Below, piece by piece: positions 8,118 to 18,517 of a DNA stretch of 64,000 bases. The notes under the pieces were generated by a model. That model saw only the letters and a list, made by a program, of their open reading frames with translations. It was not told the origin of the DNA and did no database searches. Each line of letters opens with the position of its first letter. Position 1 is the first letter of the stretch. The stretch covers positions 6,346 to 70,345 of the forward strand of contig JAVVHA010000012.1 of assembly GCA_032249735.1 (NCBI GenBank), in the 5' to 3' direction. This stretch comes from Dehalococcoidia bacterium (GTDB taxonomy: Bacteria; Chloroflexota; Dehalococcoidia; SM23-28-2; HRBIN24). The position numbers and the translations under genes were made by a program.

Positions 8118-8374
8118 TGCCTAGGTTCCTAGCCCGCGTCTACATCACCCTCAAGCCAGGGGTGAACGACCCCCAAGGGCTCACCATACGCCACGCCCTT
8201 CACCAGCTTGGGTACACCGCCGTGGCCTCTGTGCGGGCCGGCAAGTATCTGGAGATCTGGATGGAGGCGGCTGACCATCAGGAGGCCACCAAACAGGTGG
8301 AGGAGATGTGCCACCGCCTCCTGGCCAACCCCGTCATCGAGACCTTTCGCCTCCAAGTGGAGGAGACCTCATAG
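8114..8374 (+). CDS. purS: FGAM synthase PurS subunit
   Basis: 86 aa, with ARVYITLKPGVNDPQG. The ATGA overlaps purC. Confidence 0.9.
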   Translation: MMPRFLARVYITLKPGVNDPQGLTIRHALHQLGYTAVASVRAGKYLEIWMEAADHQEATKQVEEMCHRLLANPVIETFRLQVEETS

Positions 8375-9070
8375 CGCCTCCTTGAAGAGGCGCAACACGC
8401 GGGTCCAGGCGTCCTGGGCGGCGCGGGGGTTGTAGACGTCGGGACGGGTGTCGTTGAAGAAGGCGTGCTGGGTCCCGGGGTATACGTGGATCTCGAACTG
8501 CTTGCCGTACCTCTCTAGGGCAGCCCTCAGCTCCTCCGCCCGCCGCGCCGGCTCCACCCACGGGTCGTTCTCGGCGTAGATGGCCAAGACAGGCCCCCTT
8601 ATGTTCTGCACCCGGTCGATGGGCTCGGGGTTGACACCGTAGAAGGGGGCCACAGCGCGGATATGGGGGCTCTCGCAAGCCAGCTCCAGGGCCAGCCCAC
8701 CCCCCATGCAGAAGCCGATGGCCCCAATGCCCCGGCCCTGAATATAAGGCTGAGAGGCCAAGAAGGCGGCGGCGGCCACCAGCTCCCTTACCGCCTTCCT
8801 CATGTCCAGGGAGGTCATGAGGCGCTCCGCCTCCCCAGGGTCGGCGGTCACCCGGCCGTGGTAGAGGTCCGGGGCCAGGGCGGCGAACCCCTCAGAAGCG
8901 AAACGGCGACATACATCTTTGATGTGCTCATCCAGGCCCCACCACTCCTGCACGACGATGACGCCCGGCAGGGGGCCAGGGCCCTCCGGACGCGCCAGAA
9001 AGCCCGTGGCTCTCTCCCCATCGACAGGGAAGCTGACCATCTCCGTCACCACCTGAGTCATAGGCTCCAC
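8369..9070 (-). CDS. Dienelactone hydrolase family protein (carboxymethylenebutenolidase-like)
   Basis: An alpha/beta hydrolase with VIVVQEWWGLDEHIKD and GFCMGG (nucleophile elbow). Confidence 0.85.
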   Translation of the reverse strand: MEPMTQVVTEMVSFPVDGERATGFLARPEGPGPLPGVIVVQEWWGLDEHIKDVCRRFASEGFAALAPDLYHGRVTADPGEAERLMTSLDMRKAVRELVAAAAFLASQPYIQGRGIGAIGFCMGGGLALELACESPHIRAVAPFYGVNPEPIDRVQNIRGPVLAIYAENDPWVEPARRAEELRAALERYGKQFEIHVYPGTQHAFFNDTRPDVYNPRAAQDAWTRVLRLFKEAL

Positions 9071-9076
9071 CTCCTT

Positions 9077-9667
9077 TCACAGGGTTCCTTTGGTAGTGGG
9101 TATCTCGCCTCCTAAGCGGGGTTCGGGACGGGTGGCCTGACGCAGCGCCAGGGCCAGGGCCTTGAAGATGGCCTCGGCACGATGATGGTCGTTCTCGCCC
9201 GAGAGGAGGCGCGCGTGTAAGTTGAGACGTCCGCCCTGGGCCAGGGCCTGCAGGAGGTGACCTATGAGCTCCGTGGGCAAGGAGCCCAACATATCCCTCC
9301 TGAAGGCGGCCTCCACGTGAGCCCAAGGCCTCCCTCCCAGGTCCACCGCCACCAGGGCTAGGGCATCGTCCATGGGGACCAACGCATGTCCGAAGCGGAC
9401 GATACCCCGCCTCTCCCCCAGAGCCTCATCGAGAGCGTGGCCCAAGGCCAGCCCCACGTCTTCCACCAGGTGATGCGCCTCCCGCTCTAGGTCGCCGCTC
9501 GCCTCCACGACCAAATCAAATAGCGCGTGGCGGGCCAGCTGCTCCAGCAGATGGTCCAGCATGCCGATGCCCGTGCGCACCTGATAACGCCCCTGCCCGT
9601 CCAGGTCCACCTCCACCGCCACCTGCGTCTCTGAGGTCTGGCGCTGGTAGCGACCGCGCCTCTCCAT
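9077..9667 (-). CDS. hisB: Imidazoleglycerol-phosphate dehydratase
   Basis: RQTSETQVAVEVDLDG, IGMLDHLLEQLARH, and the HHLVEDVG motifs. The ATG at 9667 has a GGAG RBS. The ORF-track start at 9814 is upstream read-through inside the hisC 3' end. Confidence 0.9.
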   Translation of the reverse strand: MERRGRYQRQTSETQVAVEVDLDGQGRYQVRTGIGMLDHLLEQLARHALFDLVVEASGDLEREAHHLVEDVGLALGHALDEALGERRGIVRFGHALVPMDDALALVAVDLGGRPWAHVEAAFRRDMLGSLPTELIGHLLQALAQGGRLNLHARLLSGENDHHRAEAIFKALALALRQATRPEPRLGGEIPTTKGTL

Positions 9668-9678
9668 TCCACCACTCC

Positions 9679-10782
9679 TTAACTCAGGCGCTGAACAGCA
9701 GCCAGCAGCCTTTCGGTGTCCATGGGGCGGCCGGCGGAGATGCGCAGGTGGTGACGCAACGAAGGATGCGCGTAGCAGCGTACCAGCACCCCCGTACGTC
9801 GCAACTCCTGCCACACCTCCCGCGCATCCCTCCCCATCACCCGACAGAGGAGGAAGTTGGCCTGGGAAGGGTACACTTCTAGCCAGGGGATGGAGGAGAG
9901 GCCTTGGGCCATCCTCTCCCTCTCGGCCACGATGGCCCTTATGCGCTCCTGTAGCACCCCCAAGTCCTCCAAGGAAGCAAGGGCGGCTACCTGGGCGGCT
10001 ACATTGACGTTATATGGCATCTTGGCCTTCAGCACAAGGGCGGCCATCTCCTTGGCCATGATGCCGTAGCCGATGCGCAGCCCGGCCAGGCCGGCCCATT
10101 TGCTAAAGGTACGCAGCACCACCAGGTTCTCCCTCTCCACGGCCAAGGGGTAGAAGGTGTGGCGGCGGCCTGGCCACTCCTGCTCGGCGAACTCCACATA
10201 GGCCTCGTCCACCACTACCAGGGCGCCGGTGGCCAGCAAGGCCTCCAGCTCTTCCCTCTGCACCAGGTTGCCCGTGGGGTTGTTAGGGGAGGCCAAGAAG
10301 CATACCGCCTCCGCCCCACGAAGAGCGCGGGCCATGGCTTCCACATCTAGGGAGAAGTCAGGGCGACGGGCCACCTCCACCACCTCCCCGCCATACAGAC
10401 GGGCCAAGAACCCGTACATGCCAAAGGTAGGCTGGGCCACCACCACCCGCCGCCCCGGCCCCACCCACAGCCGGCAGATGACGTCTAAGAGGTCATCGGA
10501 CCCCGCGCCACAGACGATGTGCCCTTCGTCCACCCCCAGGCCATGGGCCAAGGCCCGCCTCAGCTCCCGCTGCCAAGGGTCGGGGTAAAGGTGGGCCGTG
10601 GACAGGCCAATTAGGGCTGCCATGGCCTTAGGGGATGGGCCGTACGGGTTCTCGTTGCCGTCCAGTTTGGCCAGCATGTCTGGGGCAATGCCCAGCTCCC
10701 TGGCCACCACCTCTGGAGGGTCGATGGGCTCGTATCCCTCCATCTCGGCGATGTAAGGGCGGGCCAAGGGGAAGGAGGCCAT
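9679..10782 (-). CDS. hisC: Histidinol-phosphate aminotransferase
   Basis: A class II aminotransferase with LDGNENPYGPSP and a PLP-Lys region (FSKWAGLAGLRIGY). Confidence 0.9.
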   Translation of the reverse strand: MASFPLARPYIAEMEGYEPIDPPEVVARELGIAPDMLAKLDGNENPYGPSPKAMAALIGLSTAHLYPDPWQRELRRALAHGLGVDEGHIVCGAGSDDLLDVICRLWVGPGRRVVVAQPTFGMYGFLARLYGGEVVEVARRPDFSLDVEAMARALRGAEAVCFLASPNNPTGNLVQREELEALLATGALVVVDEAYVEFAEQEWPGRRHTFYPLAVERENLVVLRTFSKWAGLAGLRIGYGIMAKEMAALVLKAKMPYNVNVAAQVAALASLEDLGVLQERIRAIVAERERMAQGLSSIPWLEVYPSQANFLLCRVMGRDAREVWQELRRTGVLVRCYAHPSLRHHLRISAGRPMDTERLLAAVQRLS

Positions 10783-10783
10783 C

Positions 10784-12112
10784 TCAAGCCTTCCTCACCC
10801 TGCGGGCCTCCACGGCCGCGGCATGGCCCGTGAGGCCCTCGGCCCTGGCGATGGCCGCAGCCAGGGGGGCCAGCTCCCCCGCCTCCTCCCGCGTTATGTC
10901 GACATATGTGATGACCTTCAGAAAGTCCCAGACCCCCAAGGGAGAGGAGAAGCGAGCGCTGCCCCCGGTGGGCAGGACGTGGCTGGGCCCTACCACATAG
11001 TCGCCCAGGGACTCAGCAGCCGCCGGCCCGAGGAAAACACATCCCACGTTCCGCACCAGGGGTAGGAGGGCTCGTGGCTCCCGCACATGCAGGCAGAGGT
11101 GCTCCGGGGCCAGGGCGTTGGCCAACTCCATAGCCTCCCGCAGATCCGACAGCGCCACCATGGCCCCCCTGGCAGCCAGGGCCCGCTGGGCCACCTCCCG
11201 GCGGGCCAGACGCGGCAGGCCCCATTCCAGATGCTTTTGCACCGCATCCAGCAGCCCCTCCTGGGTGACTATGAGGACCACCGTGGCCAGCTCGTCGTGC
11301 TCGGCGCCGGCCAGCATGTCGACGGCCAACAGGGCGGGGTCAGCCCCATCATCGGCCACTATCACCGTCTCCGAGGGCCCGAAGATGCCATCGATGCCCA
11401 CTTGGCCGAAGAGGAGCCGCTTGGCAGTGGCCACGAAGATGTTGCCAGGGCCACAGATCTTGTCCACCGGTGGTACGGTGGCGGTGCCATAGGCCAGGGC
11501 GGCGATGCCCTGCACGCCACCGGCGCGGAAGACGCGGGACACCCCAGCTAGGCGGGCCGCCACCAGCTTCTCGGGCGCCACTCGCCCGTCGGGGCGGGCG
11601 GGGGTGGCCATCACCACCTCCCCCACCCCGGCCACGCGGGCGGGGATGGCCGTCATGAGCACAGTAGACGGATAGGAGACGACGCTGCCCGGCACATAGA
11701 TGCCCACCCTCTCCAACGGCCGCACCACCTGGCCTGCTCCATCGCCTTGGAAAGCCCGCTGGGCGTTCTCCAACTGGCGACGGTGGAAGGCCTCCACCCG
11801 ACGCGCCGCCTCCTGCAAGGCCTCCCGCAGAGGGATGGGCACTTCCTCCCACGCCCGGAGGATCTCCTCCTCCGTCACTACCAGAGGGGCATCGAGGGGT
11901 AGGCCGTCCAACAGGTGGTTATAGCGGGCCACGGCCTCGTCGCCTTGGGCCCGCACATCGGCCAGGATATATGCCACCACCTCCTGCACCGATAGGTCTG
12001 CCCCGAAGACCTCCCGCACTTTCTCCCGCACGTGGGGAGGCAGCTCCTCCTCGGGCGGAGGACGGCCCAGGAGCCAACGACGCGCTTCCTCCAGTCCTTT
12101 GAGCACTAGCAC
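10784..12112 (-). CDS. hisD: Histidinol dehydrogenase
   Basis: ICGPGNIFVATAKR, GPSETVIVADDGADPA, and AEHDELA, at full length. Confidence 0.95.
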   Translation of the reverse strand: MLVLKGLEEARRWLLGRPPPEEELPPHVREKVREVFGADLSVQEVVAYILADVRAQGDEAVARYNHLLDGLPLDAPLVVTEEEILRAWEEVPIPLREALQEAARRVEAFHRRQLENAQRAFQGDGAGQVVRPLERVGIYVPGSVVSYPSTVLMTAIPARVAGVGEVVMATPARPDGRVAPEKLVAARLAGVSRVFRAGGVQGIAALAYGTATVPPVDKICGPGNIFVATAKRLLFGQVGIDGIFGPSETVIVADDGADPALLAVDMLAGAEHDELATVVLIVTQEGLLDAVQKHLEWGLPRLARREVAQRALAARGAMVALSDLREAMELANALAPEHLCLHVREPRALLPLVRNVGCVFLGPAAAESLGDYVVGPSHVLPTGGSARFSSPLGVWDFLKVITYVDITREEAGELAPLAAAIARAEGLTGHAAAVEARRVRKA

Positions 12113-12858
12113 AGGTAAGCCCTCACTGCCTCCATCCCTTTCTCCACCGATGTCTCCAGGAAGAAGCGTATGCGTTCAGGGGTGAGATAGCGCACCGCCT
12201 CCTCCACCAGTTGGGGCAGGGTCTTGACGAACTGGGCGAAGGCCTCGGGTGTCTCGATGCCCGCCTCCTCCAGATAGCGACTGGCGATGAAGCGAAAACG
12301 TTCCCATTCCGGCGGCCTGCTGGCTACCCGCAGGGTGATCTCCCGCCAGCGGGACATGGTCTCGGCGTCCACAAAACCCAGGTCGATGCCCATGTCTGCC
12401 CGGGCCAGCTCTGATACGATATGGGCTACCAGCTCTGGGTCCCGCCTCCCCTCCCGGTCCATAGAGAACTGGACGGCCCGGTCTAGGATGTTGGCCCAGC
12501 AGTCGCCGCCTAGGGGCGAGCGCTCGCCGAAAAAGGGCCTGTATATCTGAGTTATCCATATCTCGTCCATGACCAAGTGAGTTATATAGCCAGCTACAAA
12601 GGCTGCCATATGAGGCGGGATGGCGTGGGCGTCCGCCAGATGGGGCTGGGCGCGCAAGAACTCGGCCACCCCGTCCTGATGGCCGAAGTTGGTCAGATCG
12701 AAGAAATGGGTCACCTTCCGGTCCCACCGAGTGAGGACCCGTATATCGGGGGTAGTGGAGCCCAGGTAGAGGGCACCGCGGTGACCATCCAGAATGGGAT
12801 GTCGCAGCCTATCACCTATCTCCTTGGCCACTACTGTGTGCAGGCCCAGGGGAGGCAC
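12106..12858 (-). CDS. Uncharacterised metal-dependent hydrolase-like protein (resembles the Zn-dependent PLC / S1-P1 nuclease superfamily)
   Basis: 250 aa with no signal peptide. The N-terminus GLHTVVAKEIGDRL is like the GxHxxVA start of P1/PLC-type enzymes, with several His/Asp pairs (ITHLVMDE). It overlaps the hisD start by 7 nt and sits inside the his operon. Confidence 0.5.
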   Translation of the reverse strand: MPPLGLHTVVAKEIGDRLRHPILDGHRGALYLGSTTPDIRVLTRWDRKVTHFFDLTNFGHQDGVAEFLRAQPHLADAHAIPPHMAAFVAGYITHLVMDEIWITQIYRPFFGERSPLGGDCWANILDRAVQFSMDREGRRDPELVAHIVSELARADMGIDLGFVDAETMSRWREITLRVASRPPEWERFRFIASRYLEEAGIETPEAFAQFVKTLPQLVEEAVRYLTPERIRFFLETSVEKGMEAVRAYLC

Positions 12859-12872
12859 CCTATCACCTCACG

Positions 12873-14279
12873 TTAGATTGTAGCAGAGCCTGCCACGGCC
12901 ACCGGCCGCAGCGAGTCCAGGAGCAAGCGCAAAAGCTCGCCGCGCCTCCCTGTGGGGGTGTGCCGCCCCACCACCACACAGGTGGTGGAGCGGAAGAGCA
13001 CGTCGATGGCCTTCAAACGGTTCTCGGCTAGGGTGCGGCCTGTCTCCGTCCCCTCGATGAGGAGATCGGCGTCCTCCGGCACAAACCCCTCTGAGGCACC
13101 CGCCGTGGGTATGACCCTGTACCGCCAGAGATGGCGACTCCGGGCATAATGGTCAGCGATGGCCACGAACTCGGAAGCGATGCGCACCAGTGGCCGCCCC
13201 TCCCGACGCCAAAAGGATATGGCTTCCTCCATGGTCTCCACTGGCAAGTCCACGCTCACTACAGCGCTCATGTTAAAGGCCCCTTTGCCCAGGTCCAGGG
13301 CCACGGCCACCGGGCTGGACGGGAACCGATAGATATGCTCAAGGAAGCAGTCGCGCCCAGTGAAGGCCAGATCGAAGGCACCCAGGGCCACCATCTGGGG
13401 CATATCCTGCGGGCGGATGACCTTGGCCTCGATGCCGTCCCATGGCCCAAGGGGTCTCCTTTCCCCCTCAGCATACCCGGGGAAAGAGAGCCCCGCCTCG
13501 GCTAGGGCCCCCAGGACATGAGGCTTTTGGTGGCCATCGGGGAGGGCCACCCGCAACACCTCCCGCTCCCGAGCAGGGGGACGCGGCCTCAGACCTAGCC
13601 CTCCCAGGGAAGCCGGTAACCTCATCCCTGGCACGGACGAAAGCCCCAAAGAGGCCAGGGCCGACAGCACCCAGCCCATGTCCAAGGCCTTGATCGCCTG
13701 ACGATGGGCGATGACCACAGGCGGCCCCTCCAGCACAGCTAGCAGGGGCACAAGCCCCCTCTTGACTACCTCTTCCTCGTGGCTGGCCAAGGCCAGGGCC
13801 AGGTCGGCGTCCTCAGGTGGGTAGGCCTCGGCGCTCCCCCAGACGGGGATGATGCGGTATCGGGGCAAGCGCAGGGCCAAGGCCAAGGCCTCCGCCAGAT
13901 GGGGGAACTCGGTGACGATGCGGGGCTCTGCCAAGCGGGAGAGGTCCGCCAGCGTCTGGGCCGTTGAGGGGGCGGCCATCAGAAAGAGGGTGGGGCCCGC
14001 CAAGGGAAGGGACCCCAGCTTCACCACCCCCTGCCGAGGGTTGCGGGCCAAGAACTCTTCCACCCACGCCGCCCCGCAGATACCCACATGGTACTGCCCT
14101 AAAGCGATCTGGACGGGTATATCCCGCTCTCGAAAGACCCTCACCCGGGCCCGCCCGTCCAGGGACAGACGATATGACCGCGAGCCTTCGCCGTAGCCAG
14201 GTACATCCAGGCCCACCTGGGACAGGAGCTGGGAGATGGGACGGCGCAGCTCCCCCGCTGGCAAGGCTATCTTTATCAC
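12873..14279 (-). CDS. hisG: ATP phosphoribosyltransferase, short-form type with an internal tandem duplication (two HisG catalytic-type repeats)
   Basis: Residues 1-215 and 250-468 are clear repeats (IKIALPAG/LRVALPDG; LLSQVGLDVPGY/ALAEAGLSFPGY; VFRERDIPVQIALG/VIRPQDMPQMVALG). The second repeat keeps the HisG motifs (AFDLAFTGRDCFLE). The first is degenerate. Confidence 0.85.
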   Translation of the reverse strand: MIKIALPAGELRRPISQLLSQVGLDVPGYGEGSRSYRLSLDGRARVRVFRERDIPVQIALGQYHVGICGAAWVEEFLARNPRQGVVKLGSLPLAGPTLFLMAAPSTAQTLADLSRLAEPRIVTEFPHLAEALALALRLPRYRIIPVWGSAEAYPPEDADLALALASHEEEVVKRGLVPLLAVLEGPPVVIAHRQAIKALDMGWVLSALASLGLSSVPGMRLPASLGGLGLRPRPPAREREVLRVALPDGHQKPHVLGALAEAGLSFPGYAEGERRPLGPWDGIEAKVIRPQDMPQMVALGAFDLAFTGRDCFLEHIYRFPSSPVAVALDLGKGAFNMSAVVSVDLPVETMEEAISFWRREGRPLVRIASEFVAIADHYARSRHLWRYRVIPTAGASEGFVPEDADLLIEGTETGRTLAENRLKAIDVLFRSTTCVVVGRHTPTGRRGELLRLLLDSLRPVAVAGSATI

Positions 14280-15505
14280 TTCTCGGCGCCTCCCGACAAA
14301 ACGGTCAAGGCCTCATCCACGCTCCCCACCTGCTGACCGGCCGACGCCCCAGCGCCAAAGGCCACCATGCCCTGGGGTCCCACCAGCAGACGGGGCCCTC
14401 CCCAAGAGACGCCGCGGGCCAGGGCCACCTGGGCAGGCAAACCTCTCTCCCGTAGGGCGGAGGCGGCTTGAAAGGCCGCAGCTACGGTAGTTGCTGCCCC
14501 ATCGGCCGGTTCCACCCAAACCGTGGCTGCTGCCACAGGAGGCCTGGTGACCAACGGCAGAAGGCGCCCCATGTACAGGGCGAAGCCGGAGGCGGGGACC
14601 TGGCGGCCACACAGCACCTCCACCAGGGCGTCGTAGCGACCGCCTCCCCCCACCACCACATCCCCCACCAAGAGCTGGAACACGGGGCCCGTATAGTACT
14701 CGAAATTGCGGACCATGGCCCCCGTCACCGTCGGCACCAGGCCCAGAGCCTCCAGGGTCTCAGCCAAGGCCTCCAGCTCGTCTAGGGGACGGGCGACCTC
14801 CGGTAAGGCCTGGGCGAAGGCTGCCCGCAGGTTGCGCACGTAGTTGGCCCCTTGCCCCTCCTCCCTCAGCAAGAGGTCCACCGCGGGCCCCAAGTCAGGG
14901 ATGCGACCTCGCAGTTGGGCCAGGGCCTCCTGCTCCCCGTCCAGTATGGCGTCGTATAGACGGAGCTGCTCCCCGGCGCTGAGGCCTGTCCTTTCCAGGA
15001 CCGCCCGCACAAGGCCCGGATGGGAGAGGCGCACCCCCAGGGCGCCCAGCCCCAGCCGGGCTAGCACCTCCCGGCCCAGAAGCACCAGCTCCACGTCCCC
15101 CAGGGGCTGCGTATCGCCCAGCAGCTCCACCCCACACTGCCACTCCTCCCTCTCCCCCTCCGTGAAGCGGAAGACGTTCTGTACGTAGAAGAGCTTGGCC
15201 AGCGGCGCTCCCATCATATGCTCGATGTAAAGACGGGCCACGGGTATGGTGCTATCGGGGCGCAGTACAACCCTCTCCCCGCTCCAGCCGTCCCAGTCCA
15301 GGAAGGAGTAGACTCGGCCCAACATCTGGGCGGAGAGGGTGCCGGCGGCGGTGAACAGAAAGAGGTGTTCAATGGTGGGGGTCCGCACCTCCTGGTAACC
15401 CCACTCACGACAGGTGAGGCGAAACACCTCCTCTACTTGCCGGAAGCGCTCCATCTCCTCCGGCAAGAGGTCGTGCATGCCTGGGCAGCGCAACGGCTCT
15501 TCCAT
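14276..15505 (-). CDS. hisZ: ATP phosphoribosyltransferase regulatory subunit (HisRS paralogue)
   Basis: Class II aaRS-like core (PGMHDLLPEEMERF, TPTIEHLFLF). The start is set at Met23 (15505) to leave about 90 nt for the divergent promoter region. The ORF track extends to 15571. Confidence 0.8.
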   Translation of the reverse strand: MEEPLRCPGMHDLLPEEMERFRQVEEVFRLTCREWGYQEVRTPTIEHLFLFTAAGTLSAQMLGRVYSFLDWDGWSGERVVLRPDSTIPVARLYIEHMMGAPLAKLFYVQNVFRFTEGEREEWQCGVELLGDTQPLGDVELVLLGREVLARLGLGALGVRLSHPGLVRAVLERTGLSAGEQLRLYDAILDGEQEALAQLRGRIPDLGPAVDLLLREEGQGANYVRNLRAAFAQALPEVARPLDELEALAETLEALGLVPTVTGAMVRNFEYYTGPVFQLLVGDVVVGGGGRYDALVEVLCGRQVPASGFALYMGRLLPLVTRPPVAAATVWVEPADGAATTVAAAFQAASALRERGLPAQVALARGVSWGGPRLLVGPQGMVAFGAGASAGQQVGSVDEALTVLSGGAEK

Positions 15506-15597
15506 AGGGCTGCAGACGAGGGACAAGAACATTCTAATGCCCTCGCCCATTAGGGGCAAAAGGGAGGCCATATAATGGAGGCTGAGGCCATCTCTTC

Positions 15598-16944
15598 ATG
15601 CGCTGGGCGTTGGCATACGGGCGTCCCCGGGGGGTTTACCTCTGGCCCATCCTTCTGGCCCTCCTTTTGGCCGCCTGCGCCGGGCCTGATGCCCCTCCCG
15701 GGGCCGTGCACGTCCTTCAAGCGCAGGGGCAGGTGGGGCCAGTGATGGCCCGCTACATCGGTCGCGGCCTTGGCCATGCCGAGGCCAAGGGGGCCGGGGC
15801 AGCAGTGATCCTCCTGGACACCCCCGGAGGCCTCTCCTCCTCCATGGACGACATCGTCAAACGCATCATGGGAGCCAAGGTGCCAGTGGTGGTATACGTG
15901 TGGCCGCCAGGGGGCCGAGCCGCTTCCGCTGGCACCTTCATCGTCATGGCCAGCCACGTGGCGGCCATGGCCCCGGGCACCAGCATCGGTGCCGCCACCC
16001 CTGTGGCCATAGGGGGCGAGGACCTAGGCGAGACCCTCCAGGACAAGGCCACCAACGACGCCGCCGCCCGCATCCGGGACATCGCCCGCCTCAGGGGCCG
16101 CAACGCCAACTGGGCGGAGGCGGCGGTGCGTCAGGCGGCCTCCGCTGGCGCCCAGGACGCCCTGCAGCTAGGGGTGGTGGAACATGTGGCCCCCGACCTG
16201 GCTACCCTACTGAAGGAGGTGGATGGCAAGCGCGTCACCTTGCAGGACGGTCGGGTGGTGGAGCTGCGCACCGCCTCCGCGCCCATAACCTTCAATAGAA
16301 TAAGCCCCGTAGAGCGCTTCCTAGACCTCATCGGCGATCCCAACATCTCCCTGCTCCTTTTGAGCTTAGGGGCGTTGGCCCTCCTTTATGAGATAGTCAA
16401 TCCAGGGGCCATATTTCCAGGAGTCTTCGGCCTTATCGCCATTATCCTGGGGTTCTTCGCCCTTAGCGTCATCCCCTTCAGCTGGGCGGGGCTGGCCCTC
16501 GTCCTGGTGGGCATCGCCCTTCTGGTGTTGGAGGTGTTCGTCACTAGCCACGGCATCTTGGGGGTGGGAGGAGTGGTGGCCCTCATCTTGGGGGCCATGT
16601 TCCTCACCCCTGGCAACCCCCGCTTCGCCGGCCCCAGCTTGGAGGTGAACCGCTGGCTGGCCTATGGCCTGGCTGCTGGGATGGGGCTATTTTTTGCCAC
16701 CATCGTGGTAAACGTGGTGCGCGCCCGGCGTCGTCCCGCCCTGATGGGCCCGGACACCATAATAGGGGAGAAGGGGGTGGCCAGGTCGCCCCTCAACCCC
16801 AGAGGGTTCGTGATGATAAAGGGGGAGTACTGGCAGGCAGAGACGGAGGAAGGGGAGGTGCAGCCGGGAGAGGAGGTCATCGTCGTGGGGCGTGAAGGGT
16901 TGCGTCTGAAGGTGAGGAAGCGACAAGGAGGTGAGGAAAAATGA
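15598..16944 (+). CDS. NfeD-like membrane-bound ClpP-class serine protease with a C-terminal OB-fold domain
   Basis: Signal/TM N-terminus, ClpP-like core ([20 protein letters not shown]), multiple TM helices, and a C-terminal OB domain. An ATGA overlap with the SPFH gene. Confidence 0.85.
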
Positions 16945-17747
16945 CCCAACGAGAGGCCGGGGCCCGCATAGCCGATTGGCTAGCCCGTGTGCTGACCATC
17001 CTGGGCTATGTCCTGGCCATCCCCCTTTTCTGGATGGCCATCCGCATCGTGCAGGAGTACGAGAGGGGGGTTATATTCCGCCTGGGTCGCTTGGTAGGGG
17101 CCAGGGGCCCAGGCCTATTCTTCATCCTCCCCTTCGTCGAGAGGATGGTGAAAGTGGACCTGCGGGTGGTGACCATGGACGTTCCCCGCCAGGAGGCCAT
17201 CACCCGCGACAACGTCACCGTCAAGGTAGATGCCGTCATCTACTTCCGCGTAGTGAACCCCGAGGACGCGGTGGTGAAGGTGGCCGATTACATCCGGGCC
17301 ACCTCGCTTATCTCCCAGACCACCCTGCGTAACGTCATCGGCCAGTCGGAGCTGGACGAGCTCCTATCGCGGCGGGAGCAGGTGAACATGCGGCTGCAGC
17401 AGATCATCGACGAGGCCACCGAACCTTGGGGAGTGAAGGTGACGGCGGTGGAGGTGCGGGACGTCATCCTCGCTCCCGAGATGGTGCGGGCCATCGCCCG
17501 CCAGGCGGAGGCGGAGCGAGAGCGACGGGCCAAGGTCATCAACGCTGAGGGCGAGTTCCAGGCCGCCCAACGCCTGGCCGAGGCCGCCCAGGTCATGGCC
17601 CAGAACCCCATCACCGTGCAGCTCCGCTTCCTGCAAACCCTCTCGGAGATCTCCACCGAGCGCAACAGCACCATAGTCTTTCCCATCCCCATCGACCTCA
17701 TCCAGGCCTTTGTCGACCGGACACGGGGAGGGCCAAGGGGCAGCTAG
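16941..17747 (+). CDS. SPFH / band 7 (stomatin-like) protein
   Basis: [34 protein letters not shown], a coiled-coil [10 protein letters not shown] region, and a TM anchor. A classic partner of NfeD. Confidence 0.9.
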
Positions 17748-18517
17748 CCACGCAGGGTGACATCACCGGCTTCGACGGCCACCAGGGTGCCGTCGGGGCG
17801 GCGCACCAGCAGGTGGCCTTGGGTATCCACGTCCTCGGCCAGCCCCTCTATCACTTCCTGGCCCCGGGAAACCCGCACCTGCTGCCCTAGGGTGATGAGC
17901 CGCTCCCGCCACCGCCGCCACACCTCCTCTGGCGATGCGCCCTCCAAGAGGGCCTCCAGATGGTTAAGGATGGCAGCGAGAACCTCCTCCCTGGCCACCT
18001 CCCGCCCCAGCTCGTGCCGCAGACTGGTGGCCACCTCGGCCAGCTCGGGGAAGCTGGCTATATCCATGTTCACGTTGACCCCGATGCCCACCAAGGAGTA
18101 GAGCACCTCATCACCCCTTATCTCCGTCTCGATGAGGACGCCGGCCACCTTCCGCCTCCCGAGCCAGACATCGTTGGGCCACTTTATGCCCGCCCGCAGG
18201 GGGGTTGTCTCCTCCAACGCCCGGGCCACGGCCAGGGGGGCCGCCATGGCCAGCTGGGCCACTTGGGTCCTTGGGGGGCGGAGCACCACCGTCAGATAGA
18301 GGTTCTGGCCGGGCGGCGAGACCCACGACCGGCCCAAGCGCCCCCGGCCGGCTGTCTGCTCGTCGGCCACCACTACCGTGCCGGGAGGGGCACCAGCCTC
18401 CGCCTCCCGTCGGGCCGCGTCCTGCGTGGAGGAGGTGATGGTGCAGTATATGAGGGAGCGACCAAGCCAGCGGGTGGTGAGGCGCTCCTGCAAATGGGGC
18501 AAATGGAGCCAGGTCAT
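17744..18517 (-). CDS. birA: Biotin--[acetyl-CoA-carboxylase] ligase (group I, no HTH domain)
   Basis: [43 protein letters not shown] (the BirA GRGRxGR motif). Confidence 0.85.

What the first reader, a model, noticed from the sequence alone, without database searches (positions are those of the whole stretch)
12873..15505. Internally duplicated HisG (degenerate repeat plus catalytic repeat) alongside HisZ
The 468-aa HisG consists of two full short-form HisG repeats in tandem. The N-terminal copy has lost the GxDLGITG-type catalytic motif (HVGICG), while the C-terminal copy keeps it. The HisZ regulatory subunit is still encoded immediately upstream. A covalently linked pseudo-catalytic plus catalytic HisG pair would be a new architectural variant of ATP-PRT hetero-octamers.
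Basis: seen in the sequence. Interest (0 to 1): 0.55.

Follow-up and report, generated by a model that had tools for sequence, protein, structure and literature searches.

The report
Tandem dead-plus-active HisG with HisZ
The first enzyme of histidine synthesis is encoded here as one chain made of a degenerate HisG copy fused to a catalytic-looking copy, next to its regulator HisZ. This real, widespread form in Chloroflexota appears undescribed and probably works as a built-in dimer with one active site.

Summary
ORF 12873..14279 (-) encodes 468 aa made of two full short-form HisG modules. Each matches TIGR00070 almost end to end (81 and 102 bits, cutoff 75.75), and the halves are 30% identical (E 4e-20). 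hisZ lies directly upstream with a GTGA start/stop overlap.

It is not an artefact. 79 of 80 fetched species genomes, out of 175 matching, carry the same uninterrupted 460-496 aa ORF in the order hisZ-hisGG-(250-aa ORF)-hisD-hisC. The window's own protein recurs in independent assemblies.

The degeneration is complementary:
- The N module has lost the PRPP P-loop and its acidic residues. It keeps, in 91/91 sequences, the Ser-Arg that matches P. arcticus HisGS Arg56, which acts across the dimer interface.
- The C module keeps the P-loop, but Lys-Gly-Arg has become an invariant Asp-Gly-His.

The same N-type and C-type pair also exists as two adjacent genes, in Ca. Sumerlaeota and in a syntenic Chloroflexi-like locus. 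The window gene is therefore a fusion of an older paralogue pair.

Best reading: an intramolecular pseudo-dimer with one composite active site, assembling as HisZ4:HisGG2. This is inferred, not shown. It is a new variant of a known kind, and I found no literature on it.

The parts
12873..14279 (-). hisGG: one gene for a 468-aa tandem HisG (N-type module, linker, C-type module, tail)
   Evidence: Single ORF. Two HisG matches. Full-length orthologues of 460-496 aa in 79 of 80 genome loci. It is the only HisG-like ORF in the 64-kb window.
13665..14279 (-). N-type module (aa 1-205): degenerate HisG, predicted unable to bind PRPP
   Evidence: TIGR00070 at 81 bits, model positions 1-176 of 183. It has the same order of secondary-structure elements as the C module in the AF2 model. 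20 of its positions are invariant in 120 sequences, so it is under selection. Coordinates checked.
14250..14258 (-). N module Ala-Gly-Glu (aa 8-10), in place of the canonical Lys-Gly-Arg (Pa K30-G31-R32)
   Evidence: In fused N modules the Lys column is A/T/R/G and the Arg column is D/Q/E (79 sequences). Split-gene N-types keep Lys in 11/12 but rarely keep Arg.
14178..14183 (-). N module Ser33-Arg34, aligned with P. arcticus HisGS Ser55-Arg56 (the Arg that acts in trans across the dimer interface)
   Evidence: Arg is present in 79/79 fused and 12/12 split N-types, and Ser in 77/79 fused N-types. The role of Arg56 is taken from PMC9734150. The numbering is confirmed by the R56A entry 7z6r.
14073..14099 (-).
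   Evidence: The family consensus is GNYDLGIC(S/G). The Asp is kept in at least 90% of orthologues, so His64 is specific to this window.
13770..13802 (-). N module remnant of the PRPP P-loop (aa 160-170, LALALASHEEE)
   Evidence: The columns matching Pa D176, D179, T180, G181 and T183 are unconserved, and three of them are deleted in 13 of 79 fused N modules. N187 is also lost.
13560..13664 (-). Linker (aa 206-240), probably the former gene boundary
   Evidence: Lowest conservation in the protein (mean top-residue frequency 0.39, against 0.64 and 0.70 in the modules). pLDDT falls to 68-77 at aa 221-240. Split-gene relatives have a stop codon and a spacer at this point.
12945..13559 (-). C-type module (aa 241-445): the presumed catalytic HisG
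   Evidence: TIGR00070 at 102 bits, model positions 1-182 of 183. It is the only half that hits solved HisG by sequence (T. maritima 1usy/1o63, E 1e-12). 46 positions are invariant.
13530..13538 (-). C module Asp248-Gly249-His250, replacing the canonical Lys-Gly-Arg (Pa R32 becomes His)
   Evidence: D-G-H in 79/79 fused and 5/5 split C-types. Canonical sequences have K-G-R in 4/4.
13452..13460 (-). C module Arg274-Arg275-Pro276, in the loop that holds Ser-Arg in canonical HisGS
   Evidence: R275 is invariant; R274 and P276 are at least 90% conserved. The exact Ser-Arg register is not kept. Its role is unknown.
13032..13055 (-). C module PRPP P-loop, E409-G-T-E-T-G-R-T416
   Evidence: Glu at Pa D176 in 84/84. 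E/Q/D at D179. Thr at T180 in 83/84, Gly at G181 in 84/84, T/S at T183 in 84/84, Asn at N187 in 83/84.
12873..12944 (-). C-terminal helix and tail (aa 446-468) plus the stop codon
   Evidence: Helix 444-460 in the AF2 model; the last residues have low confidence. Poorly conserved.
14276..15505 (-). hisZ: regulatory subunit, a HisRS paralogue (409 aa from Met at 15505; the longest ORF starts at 15571)
   Evidence: Pfam tRNA-synt_His at 4.9e-53, with no anticodon-binding domain called. Best NCBIfam match is hisZ TIGR00443, but below its cutoff. The motif-2 loop reads FRFTEGEREEWQCG rather than the R-P-Q-x-G-R-x-R of true HisRS, as seen in L082_S. It lies upstream of hisGG in all 79 loci that have flank.
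14276..14294 (-). hisZ/hisGG junction: GGGAGG (14289-14294), 9-nt spacer, and a GTG start overlapping the hisZ TGA (GTGA, 14276-14279)
   Evidence: Read directly from the sequence. It suggests translational coupling (inference).

Best explanation
hisGG encodes the catalytic component of a short-form, HisZ-dependent ATP phosphoribosyltransferase. In this enzyme the usual HisGS homodimer has been replaced by two diverged paralogous modules joined in one chain.

The C-type module keeps the PRPP-binding loop and the same-subunit substrate-binding residues, and it carries the single active site. The N-type module can no longer bind PRPP. It is retained as the obligatory dimer partner. It provides the dimer interface and HisZ contact surfaces. 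It also provides, in trans, the strictly conserved Arg34, the equivalent of P. arcticus Arg56, which stabilises the pyrophosphate leaving group in the partner's site. This Arg should matter even more here, because the C module's own Arg32 equivalent is a His.

With HisZ the expected assembly is four HisZ plus two HisGG chains. That is a pseudo-octamer with two active sites instead of four, activated by HisZ and feedback-inhibited by histidine through HisZ.

Evolutionary path: an ancestral 'PPEDAD-type' HisGS was duplicated. The copies degenerated in complementary ways into N-type and C-type subunits, still found as separate genes in some lineages. The adjacent genes then fused in a Dehalococcoidia-class Chloroflexota lineage.

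Shown here: the architecture, its conservation, the motif pattern, the split-gene relatives and the confident compact fold. Inferred: catalytic status of each module, pseudo-dimer geometry, trans-Arg function and stoichiometry.
For: Two complete HisG modules.

A real, conserved gene:
- 175 species genomes match, and 79 of the 80 fetched have an uninterrupted ORF.
- The same protein is seen in NCBI, JGI, ENA and Logan assemblies.
- More than 120 clusters at 90% identity are all 463-495 aa long.
- hisZ is always adjacent upstream, and hisD-hisC-hisB lie downstream.
- It is the only HisG ORF in the window.

Complementary degeneration:
- Residues that act within the same subunit (Pa R73, E163, D176, D179, T180, G181, T183, N187) are kept in C-types and lost or relaxed in N-types.
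- The trans residue R56 is kept in 91/91 N-types, while the Ser-Arg register is lost in C-types.

From PMC9734150: Arg56 reaches across the dimer interface into the partner's active site, and at least one of R32 and R56 is needed for full activity. C-types have His at the R32 position in 84/84.

The N module is under purifying selection, with 20 invariant positions.

AF2 gives pLDDT 91.5 and pTM 0.86 for the whole chain, which implies a fixed arrangement of the two modules. Foldseek matches HisG structures (5m8h_E, TMt 0.86).

Split-gene N-type/C-type pairs beside hisZ show the same motif pattern. In an NJ tree the N-types and the C-types each form one group, whether fused or split.
Against: - There are no biochemical data.
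- The C module lacks both Lys30 and Arg32 (it has Asp-Gly-His), so it is not a canonical active site and its activity is assumed from operon context.
- The C module keeps an invariant Arg275 in the loop that holds Arg56 in canonical HisGS. A purely dead N-site would not obviously require this.
- Split N-types keep Lys30 in 11/12, which is unexplained.
- Bootstrap support for the N and C clades is modest (33 and 54 of 100).
- I could not check whole genomes for a second, canonical hisG.
Confidence: 0.65

Rival explanations
1. The N-type module is not merely a scaffold. Its vestigial cleft has been repurposed as a ligand-binding regulatory site, for example for a nucleotide such as AMP/ADP/ATP, for histidine or for PRATP. 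On this view HisGG carries its own allosteric domain in addition to HisZ.
For: The N module keeps many invariant polar or aromatic residues around the former cleft: R34, Y36, R47, R50, D53, Q57, Y63, R137, R142, Y153, E156. The C module keeps an invariant Arg275 in the loop that would point into the N-site. Split N-types keep Lys30 in 11/12.
Against: No ligand evidence exists. Conserved residues can be explained by fold, interface and the trans-Arg role. HisZ, the usual histidine sensor, is retained in every locus. Pa R73 and E163 equivalents are relaxed in N-types.
Confidence: 0.2
2. Both modules are catalytically active ATP phosphoribosyltransferases, and the N module binds PRPP in a divergent way.
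For: The N half still passes the TIGR00070 cutoff (81 against 75.75 bits) and keeps the overall fold.
Against: The P-loop T-G-x-T, both preceding acidic residues and Asn187 are absent. That stretch is unconserved, and part of it is deleted in 13 of 79 orthologues. An essential binding loop would not drift in this way.
Confidence: 0.04
3. HisGG, with its Asp-Gly-His active site, is not an ATP phosphoribosyltransferase. It catalyses a different phosphoribosyl transfer or has another role, and a canonical HisG is encoded elsewhere.
For: The invariant replacement of K-G-R by D-G-H in all C-types is a marked active-site change. Scores against HisG models are low for a true orthologue. Whole genomes could not be checked.
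Against: The gene sits in a hisZ-hisGG-hisD-hisC-hisB operon in 80 loci. It is translationally coupled to hisZ. The PRPP loop is retained. R32A P. arcticus HisGS is largely rescued by HisZ, so loss of this Arg is tolerable in a HisZ-bound enzyme.
Confidence: 0.06
4. Artefact: a frameshift, a lost stop codon or an assembly join fused two adjacent hisG paralogues in this assembly only.
For: Split two-gene versions do exist in other lineages. One long-read MAG (L079) has a broken frame.
Against: 79 of 80 species genomes, including complete chromosomes (CP070630.1, OY969584.1, OZ253555.1), have the intact fused ORF. The window's own 468-aa sequence recurs in many independent assemblies.
Confidence: 0.01

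Closest known systems
Short-form ATP phosphoribosyltransferase, the HisGS-HisZ hetero-octamer (P. arcticus 5M8H/6FU2, A. baumannii 8OY0, L. lactis 1Z7M, T. maritima 1USY)
   Same: Both modules have the ~200-aa HisGS fold with no C-terminal regulatory domain. hisZ is adjacent and probably co-translated. The C module keeps the PRPP P-loop, and the N module keeps the trans-acting Ser-Arg. The known enzyme is built from head-to-tail HisGS dimers around a HisZ tetramer, with Arg56 crossing the dimer interface.
   Different: The known enzymes use a homodimer of identical subunits with two equivalent active sites. Here the two protomers are diverged paralogues (30% identity) joined in one chain. One has lost PRPP binding, and the other has Asp-Gly-His in place of Lys-Gly-Arg. 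Two active sites per holoenzyme are expected instead of four.
Split-gene N-type/C-type HisG pairs found here (Ca. Sumerlaeota GCA_016931135.1 locus L083; metagenome loci L081 and L082; Chloroflexi-like loci L085/L086)
   Same: They show the same two paralogue types with the same diagnostic motifs, in the same order after hisZ. L085 shares the window's wider synteny: BirA, SPFH, NfeD | hisZ ... hisD hisC hisB ... purC.
   Different: They are two separate genes of 217-232 aa and roughly 230-240 aa (one C-type is called at 274 aa, probably with an over-extended start). The genes are overlapping, abutting or spaced by up to 167 nt. The N-types mostly keep Lys30. These are themselves undescribed, not a published family.
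Long-form HisGL homohexamers (E. coli 1H3D, M. tuberculosis 1NH8, C. jejuni 4YB7)
   Same: The same catalytic core fold; Foldseek hits include 5ubi and 1h3d.
   Different: HisGL carries a C-terminal histidine-binding domain and needs no HisZ. No such domain is detected here, and hisZ is present.
Enzyme/pseudoenzyme paralogue pairs that form obligate heteromers, for example trypanosomatid AdoMetDC with its prozyme (from my own knowledge, not checked here)
   Same: The logic is the same: duplication of an oligomeric enzyme, death of one copy's active site, and retention of that copy as a required partner of the live copy.
   Different: Unrelated folds and pathways. Here the two copies are also covalently fused, and a third, separately evolved pseudoenzyme (HisZ, a dead HisRS) is part of the same complex.
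Gene elongation in histidine biosynthesis (internal duplications of HisA and HisF; PMC7284861)
   Same: Tandem duplication and fusion of a his-pathway gene into a protein of two paralogous modules (one search gives the context).
   Different: That paper does not discuss hisG elongation (one incidental mention). HisA and HisF duplicated half-barrels that make one domain, whereas here whole enzymes were duplicated.

Membership tests
HisG short form (HisGS; Pfam PF01634, NCBIfam TIGR00070) | Sequence match to the HisG catalytic-core profile above the curated threshold | tested here: met
   N half 81 bits and C half 102 bits, against a cutoff of 75.75; both matches are nearly full length. Pfam HisG at 142.9 bits in two stretches.
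HisG short form (HisGS; Pfam PF01634, NCBIfam TIGR00070) | Two-domain HisG fold of about 200 aa without the C-terminal regulatory domain | tested here: met
   AF2 pLDDT 91.5, with the same order of secondary-structure elements in both halves. Foldseek gives TMt 0.83-0.88 to HisGS chains; the table does not say which half aligned. No HisG_C hit.
HisG short form (HisGS; Pfam PF01634, NCBIfam TIGR00070) | PRPP-binding P-loop (acidic residue, x2, D/E-[ST]-G-x-T-[LM]) and Asn187 (Pa numbering) | tested here: met
   This row is for the C module: E409-G-T-E-T-G-R-T-L...N420, conserved in 84/84 at the key columns.
HisG short form (HisGS; Pfam PF01634, NCBIfam TIGR00070) | The same P-loop, assessed in the N module | tested here: not met
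   The N module reads LALALASHEEE. The columns are unconserved across 91 N-types, and three of them are deleted in 13 of 79 fused N modules. The N module is a HisG homologue but should not be filed as a functional ATP-PRT.
HisG short form (HisGS; Pfam PF01634, NCBIfam TIGR00070) | Leaving-group arginines Arg32 (K-G-R) and Arg56 (S-R), reported as highly conserved in HisGS (PMC9734150) | tested here: inconclusive
   Neither module has both. The C module has His at R32 (84/84) and no Ser-Arg in register. The N module has Ser-Arg (91/91) but no R32. The pair together has one of the two arginines at the presumed composite site.
HisG short form (HisGS; Pfam PF01634, NCBIfam TIGR00070) | Catalyses ATP + PRPP to PRATP + PPi | not testable with these tools
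   Only operon context supports it.
HisZ-dependent hetero-octameric ATP-PRT holoenzyme | A hisZ gene (a HisRS paralogue lacking aminoacylation motifs) encoded together with hisG | tested here: met
   hisZ is directly upstream with a 4-nt overlap, in all 79 loci that have flank. The motif-2 loop is degenerate compared with the true HisRS of L082. The NCBIfam hisZ model is the best hit but falls below its cutoff (197 against 271.65 bits).
HisZ-dependent hetero-octameric ATP-PRT holoenzyme | Assembly of a HisZ tetramer flanked by two HisG dimers, with activation by HisZ and inhibition by histidine | not testable with these tools
   Inferred by analogy with 5M8H and 8OY0. No multimer prediction was available.
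Long-form HisGL | A C-terminal histidine-binding regulatory domain (HisG_C) on the same chain | tested here: not met
   No such Pfam hit at E up to 1. The extra length of the protein is a second HisG core.

The most novel reading that the evidence does not exclude
The N-type/C-type HisG pair is more than a crippled homodimer. The invariant Asp-Gly-His of the C module and the conserved vestigial cleft of the N module would together form a rebuilt catalytic and regulatory machine. For example, leaving-group stabilisation could be metal- or His-assisted, and the dead site could become a new allosteric nucleotide- or histidine-binding site that talks to HisZ. That would be a third mechanistic class of ATP-PRT beside HisGL and HisGS/HisZ.
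Probability: 0.2. Interest if true: 0.75.

Novelty: new variant of a known kind. Interest (0 to 1): 0.55.

Why it matters
ATP-PRT is a textbook allosteric enzyme and an antibiotic target. Its short form is a model for how a remote regulatory protein (HisZ) tunes active-site electrostatics through Arg56 and Arg32.

This family is a natural experiment on that model. One protomer has been reduced to a donor of the trans-acting Arg and an interface. The other has lost its own Arg32. The whole is hard-wired as one chain. It offers a defined, asymmetric system for three questions: half-of-sites behaviour, trans-complementation, and how pseudoenzymes arise by complementary degeneration.

It also matters for annotation. 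Stand-alone N-type proteins are currently named 'ATP phosphoribosyltransferase', although they very probably cannot catalyse the reaction alone.

If the enzyme proves ordinary in kinetics, the finding is still a clean, phylum-wide case of duplication, subfunctionalisation and fusion in a core pathway.

Tried and rejected
- Assembly or frameshift artefact: rejected.
- HisZ-HisGG triple fusion: this was suggested by long open frames upstream in some loci and by the 637-aa P0144. It is rejected. The hisZ and hisGG matches are in different frames, and P0144 contains an Arg/Pro-rich out-of-frame stretch typical of an over-extended ORF in high-GC DNA.
- A second HisG in the window: none.
- Recent DNA-level duplication: not pursued, because the halves are only 30% identical at protein level.
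- Literature: five searches and three targeted reads found nothing on tandem, duplicated or heterodimeric HisG.
- Model coordinates are not exposed, so the inter-module geometry and the Arg34-to-P-loop distance could not be measured.
- The first NJ/bootstrap script timed out and was redone with a faster distance. Support was only moderate.
Full report
OBSERVATION. The flagged interval holds two genes on the minus strand. ORF 12873..14279 encodes 468 aa. Pfam HisG (PF01634) matches it in two stretches. When the halves are scanned separately, aa 1-235 match NCBIfam TIGR00070 (hisG) over model positions 1-176 of 183 at 81 bits, and aa 236-468 match positions 1-182 at 102 bits. Both exceed the curated cutoff of 75.75. 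The two halves align to each other at 30% identity, E 4e-20. No C-terminal HisG regulatory domain is detected, so both are short-form modules.

The upstream ORF (14276..15571, most likely starting at the Met at 15505) is a histidyl-tRNA-synthetase paralogue. No anticodon-binding domain is called. Its motif-2 loop is degenerate when compared with a true HisRS seen in a related locus. Its best NCBIfam match is hisZ, though below that model's cutoff. Its TGA overlaps the GTG start of the tandem gene (GTGA), and a GGGAGG lies 9 nt upstream. Downstream on the same strand come a 250-aa ORF, then hisD, hisC and hisB.

NOT AN ARTEFACT. A search of 5.8 billion proteins returned more than 120 clusters. 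All are 463-495 aa, cover 93-100% of the query at 52-99% identity, and are named simply 'ATP phosphoribosyltransferase' from Dehalococcoidia or Chloroflexi MAGs. A scan of one genome per GTDB species found 175 genomes encoding a relative. Of the 80 fetched, 79 carry one uninterrupted ORF of 460-496 aa, including complete chromosomes. The exception (L079) is a frameshifted long-read MAG. The window's own cluster has 29 members from NCBI (MDT7944093.1), JGI, ENA and Logan assemblies. Synteny is almost invariant: hisZ - hisGG - 250-aa ORF - hisD - hisC. No other HisG-like ORF exists in the 64-kb window.

ANATOMY. I aligned 79 fused proteins and 17 split-gene proteins with solved HisGS sequences and with single-domain relatives, then read off the columns of functionally characterised P. 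arcticus HisGS residues. The numbering was verified with the R56A entry 7z6r.

In the C-type module, the residues that act within the same subunit are kept:
- Arg73 in 84/84.
- Glu163 in 84/84.
- Asp176 as Glu in 84/84.
- Asp179 as E/Q/D.
- Thr180 in 83/84, Gly181 in 84/84 and T/S at Thr183 in 84/84 (the PRPP P-loop; here E409-G-T-E-T-G-R-T416).
- Asn187 in 83/84.

In the N-type module these same columns are lost or relaxed. The P-loop stretch (here LALALASHEEE) is unconserved, and three of its columns are deleted in 13 of 79 orthologues.

The reverse holds for Ser55-Arg56. The N-type keeps Arg in 91/91 and Ser in 77/79 of the fused N-types (here S33-R34). The C-type has lost that register, although it keeps a nearby invariant Arg275 in an R-R-P motif.

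The Lys30-Gly31-Arg32 motif is Asp-Gly-His in 84/84 C-types (here D248-G249-H250). In fused N-types it is degenerate (here A-G-E). The N module nonetheless has 20 invariant positions in 120 sequences, so it is under purifying selection.

The N copy does, however, also lack the G-x-D that follows this motif in the C copy.

WHAT THE LITERATURE SAYS ABOUT THOSE RESIDUES. Short-form ATP-PRT is a HisZ tetramer flanked by two head-to-tail HisGS homodimers, with two active sites in the crevice between the protomers. In the activated P. arcticus enzyme, Arg56 of one protomer crosses the dimer interface to bind the PRPP pyrophosphate in the other protomer's site. Arg32 and Arg56 both stabilise the leaving group. 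The single mutants are largely rescued by HisZ, but the R32A/R56A/K57A triple mutant, which lacks both arginines, is not (PMC9734150).

The pattern found here is what one expects if only one of the two sites of a dimer is kept. The live protomer (C-type) retains its own binding residues. The dead protomer (N-type) retains the residue it donates. Because the C-type has His instead of Arg32, the donated Arg should be the only guanidinium left at the site, which would make the N module indispensable. This is inference.

STRUCTURE. AlphaFold2 with 120 sequences gives mean pLDDT 91.5 and pTM 0.86 for the whole chain. Both halves show the same order of strands and helices, and confidence dips at the linker (aa 221-240). 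A pTM this high for a 468-aa two-module protein implies a confidently fixed arrangement of the two modules. Foldseek against the PDB returns HisG structures only at the top (P. arcticus 5m8h_E TMt 0.86; T. maritima 1usy_E 0.83). Coordinates are not exposed, so I could not check that the packing reproduces the HisGS dimer.

SPLIT-GENE RELATIVES AND HISTORY. An exhaustive profile search with the N half found about 14 full-length tandem clusters at 50% identity. The order is always N-type then C-type. It also found stand-alone N-type proteins (213-240 aa) and stand-alone C-type proteins. Their contigs show adjacent genes:
- L081: (hisZ fragment) - N (232 aa) - C (237 aa).
- L082 and L083 (Ca. Sumerlaeota, GCA_016931135.1): hisZ - N (217 aa) - C (232 or 242 aa) - hisS.
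- L085/L086: hisZ - N (225 aa) - C (274 aa) - hisD - hisC - hisB. These share the window's wider neighbourhood of BirA, SPFH and NfeD upstream and purC downstream.

Stand-alone N-types form a coherent family of 216-218 aa at 56-89% identity. Split N-types and C-types show the same diagnostic motifs as the fused modules. In an NJ tree, the N-types and the C-types each form one group whether fused or split, and together they are separated from single HisGS. The fused modules form one subclade within each group. Bootstrap support is modest, at 33, 54 and 33 of 100.

Both types share derived features that canonical HisGS lacks, namely a G-Y-x-E-G insertion and a P-E-D-A-D motif. The latter motif is also seen in a single-domain relative that still has both K-G-R and the P-loop (P0252).

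The most economical history is duplication of such a HisGS, complementary degeneration, and then one fusion in a Dehalococcoidia-class lineage. The poorly conserved linker would be the former gene boundary.

MECHANISM, COMMITTED. HisGG is the catalytic partner of HisZ in ATP-PRT. It folds as an intramolecular pseudo-dimer with a single composite active site: the C-module P-loop plus the N-module Arg34. It assembles as HisZ4:HisGG2 and is activated, and inhibited by histidine, through HisZ. Confidence is about 0.65 for the mechanism as a whole and above 0.95 for the architecture.

Rivals:
- The N cleft has been repurposed as an allosteric site (0.2). It is suggested by the invariant Arg275 of the C module, by Lys30 retention in split N-types and by many conserved cleft residues.
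- Both modules are active (0.04). This conflicts with the drifting P-loop region.
- The protein is not an ATP-PRT (0.06). The D-G-H change is striking, but the operon context and the known tolerance of R32A in HisZ-bound enzyme argue against it.
- Artefact (0.01). Refuted.

COMPARISON AND NOVELTY. By profile and fold, both modules are HisG homologues. The C module passes the P-loop test, while the N module fails it and should not be called a functional ATP-PRT. Neither module alone has both leaving-group arginines. It is not a long-form HisG.

It works like a HisGS/HisZ enzyme but differs in three ways: a heteromeric and here covalently fused catalytic pair, half the number of active sites, and a remodelled K-G-R motif. 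Five full-text searches and three targeted reads found no description of tandem, duplicated or heterodimeric HisG. The papers on gene fusion and elongation in the his pathway do not cover hisG. Databases hold the proteins under the generic name only. I rate it a new variant of a known kind, interest 0.55. It is a neat, testable natural dissection of a well-studied allosteric enzyme, but the chemistry and pathway role are expected to be conventional.

Noticed in passing
window 12106..12858 (-): A 250-aa ORF sits between hisGG and hisD and is conserved at that position in 76 of 80 loci. It gives only a weak Pfam Zn_dep_PLPC hit (26.5 bits, against a cutoff of 26.8). The family has 864+ members, named 'hypothetical' or 'zinc dependent phospholipase C family'. 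Invariant or near-invariant His/Asp residues are H7, D38, H51, H94, D98, D126 and D134. AF2 gives a confident all-alpha model (pLDDT 90.9, pTM 0.90), with no Foldseek PDB match below E 0.6 and no PDB sequence hit. It is a candidate metal-dependent phosphoesterase and possibly the missing histidinol-phosphate phosphatase of this clade (inference only)..
   Followed up: partly
loci L081, L082, L083 (Ca. Sumerlaeota GCA_016931135.1), L085/L086: Two-gene versions of the same N-type/C-type HisG pair lie after hisZ. In L082 and L083 they are followed directly by a genuine hisS. The stand-alone N-type proteins are annotated as ATP phosphoribosyltransferase, although they lack the PRPP loop.
   Followed up: yes
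P0252 (207 aa): A single-domain HisG that has the canonical K-G-R and the E-S-G-R-T-L P-loop, and also the P-P-E-D-A-D motif otherwise typical of the N/C-type pair. It scores equally on the N and C profiles (116 and 117 bits). It is probably close to the unduplicated ancestor type.
   Followed up: partly
window 15598..18517: An NfeD-like membrane protein (15598..16944, +), an SPFH/Band-7 protein (16941..17747, +) and a BirA-type biotin ligase (17744..18517, -) lie upstream of hisZ. The NfeD gene recurs beside hisZ in most fused loci, and all three genes recur in the split-gene locus L085.
   Followed up: no
window 14088..14090 (aa 64 of HisGG): His64 replaces an Asp that at least 90% of orthologous N modules keep in the G-N-Y-D-L-G-I-C motif.
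   Followed up: yes
cluster of P0001: Several JGI gene calls for this same protein are 404 aa instead of 468 aa. They use an alternative start that cuts 64 aa off the N module, which could hide the tandem architecture in automated domain counts.
   Followed up: no
window 8369..9814 (-): In the longest hisB ORF (9077..9814) the IGPD domain starts only at aa 81, and the ORF overlaps the end of hisC, so the true start is probably later. hisB is followed by a dienelactone-hydrolase-family gene (8369..9070) rather than by hisH/A/F.
   Followed up: no
locus L079 (MFD10007.bin.2.9, long-read MAG): This is the only one of the 80 loci where hisGG is broken into several frames (4 HSPs). It is most likely a sequencing indel or a pseudogene.
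   Followed up: no
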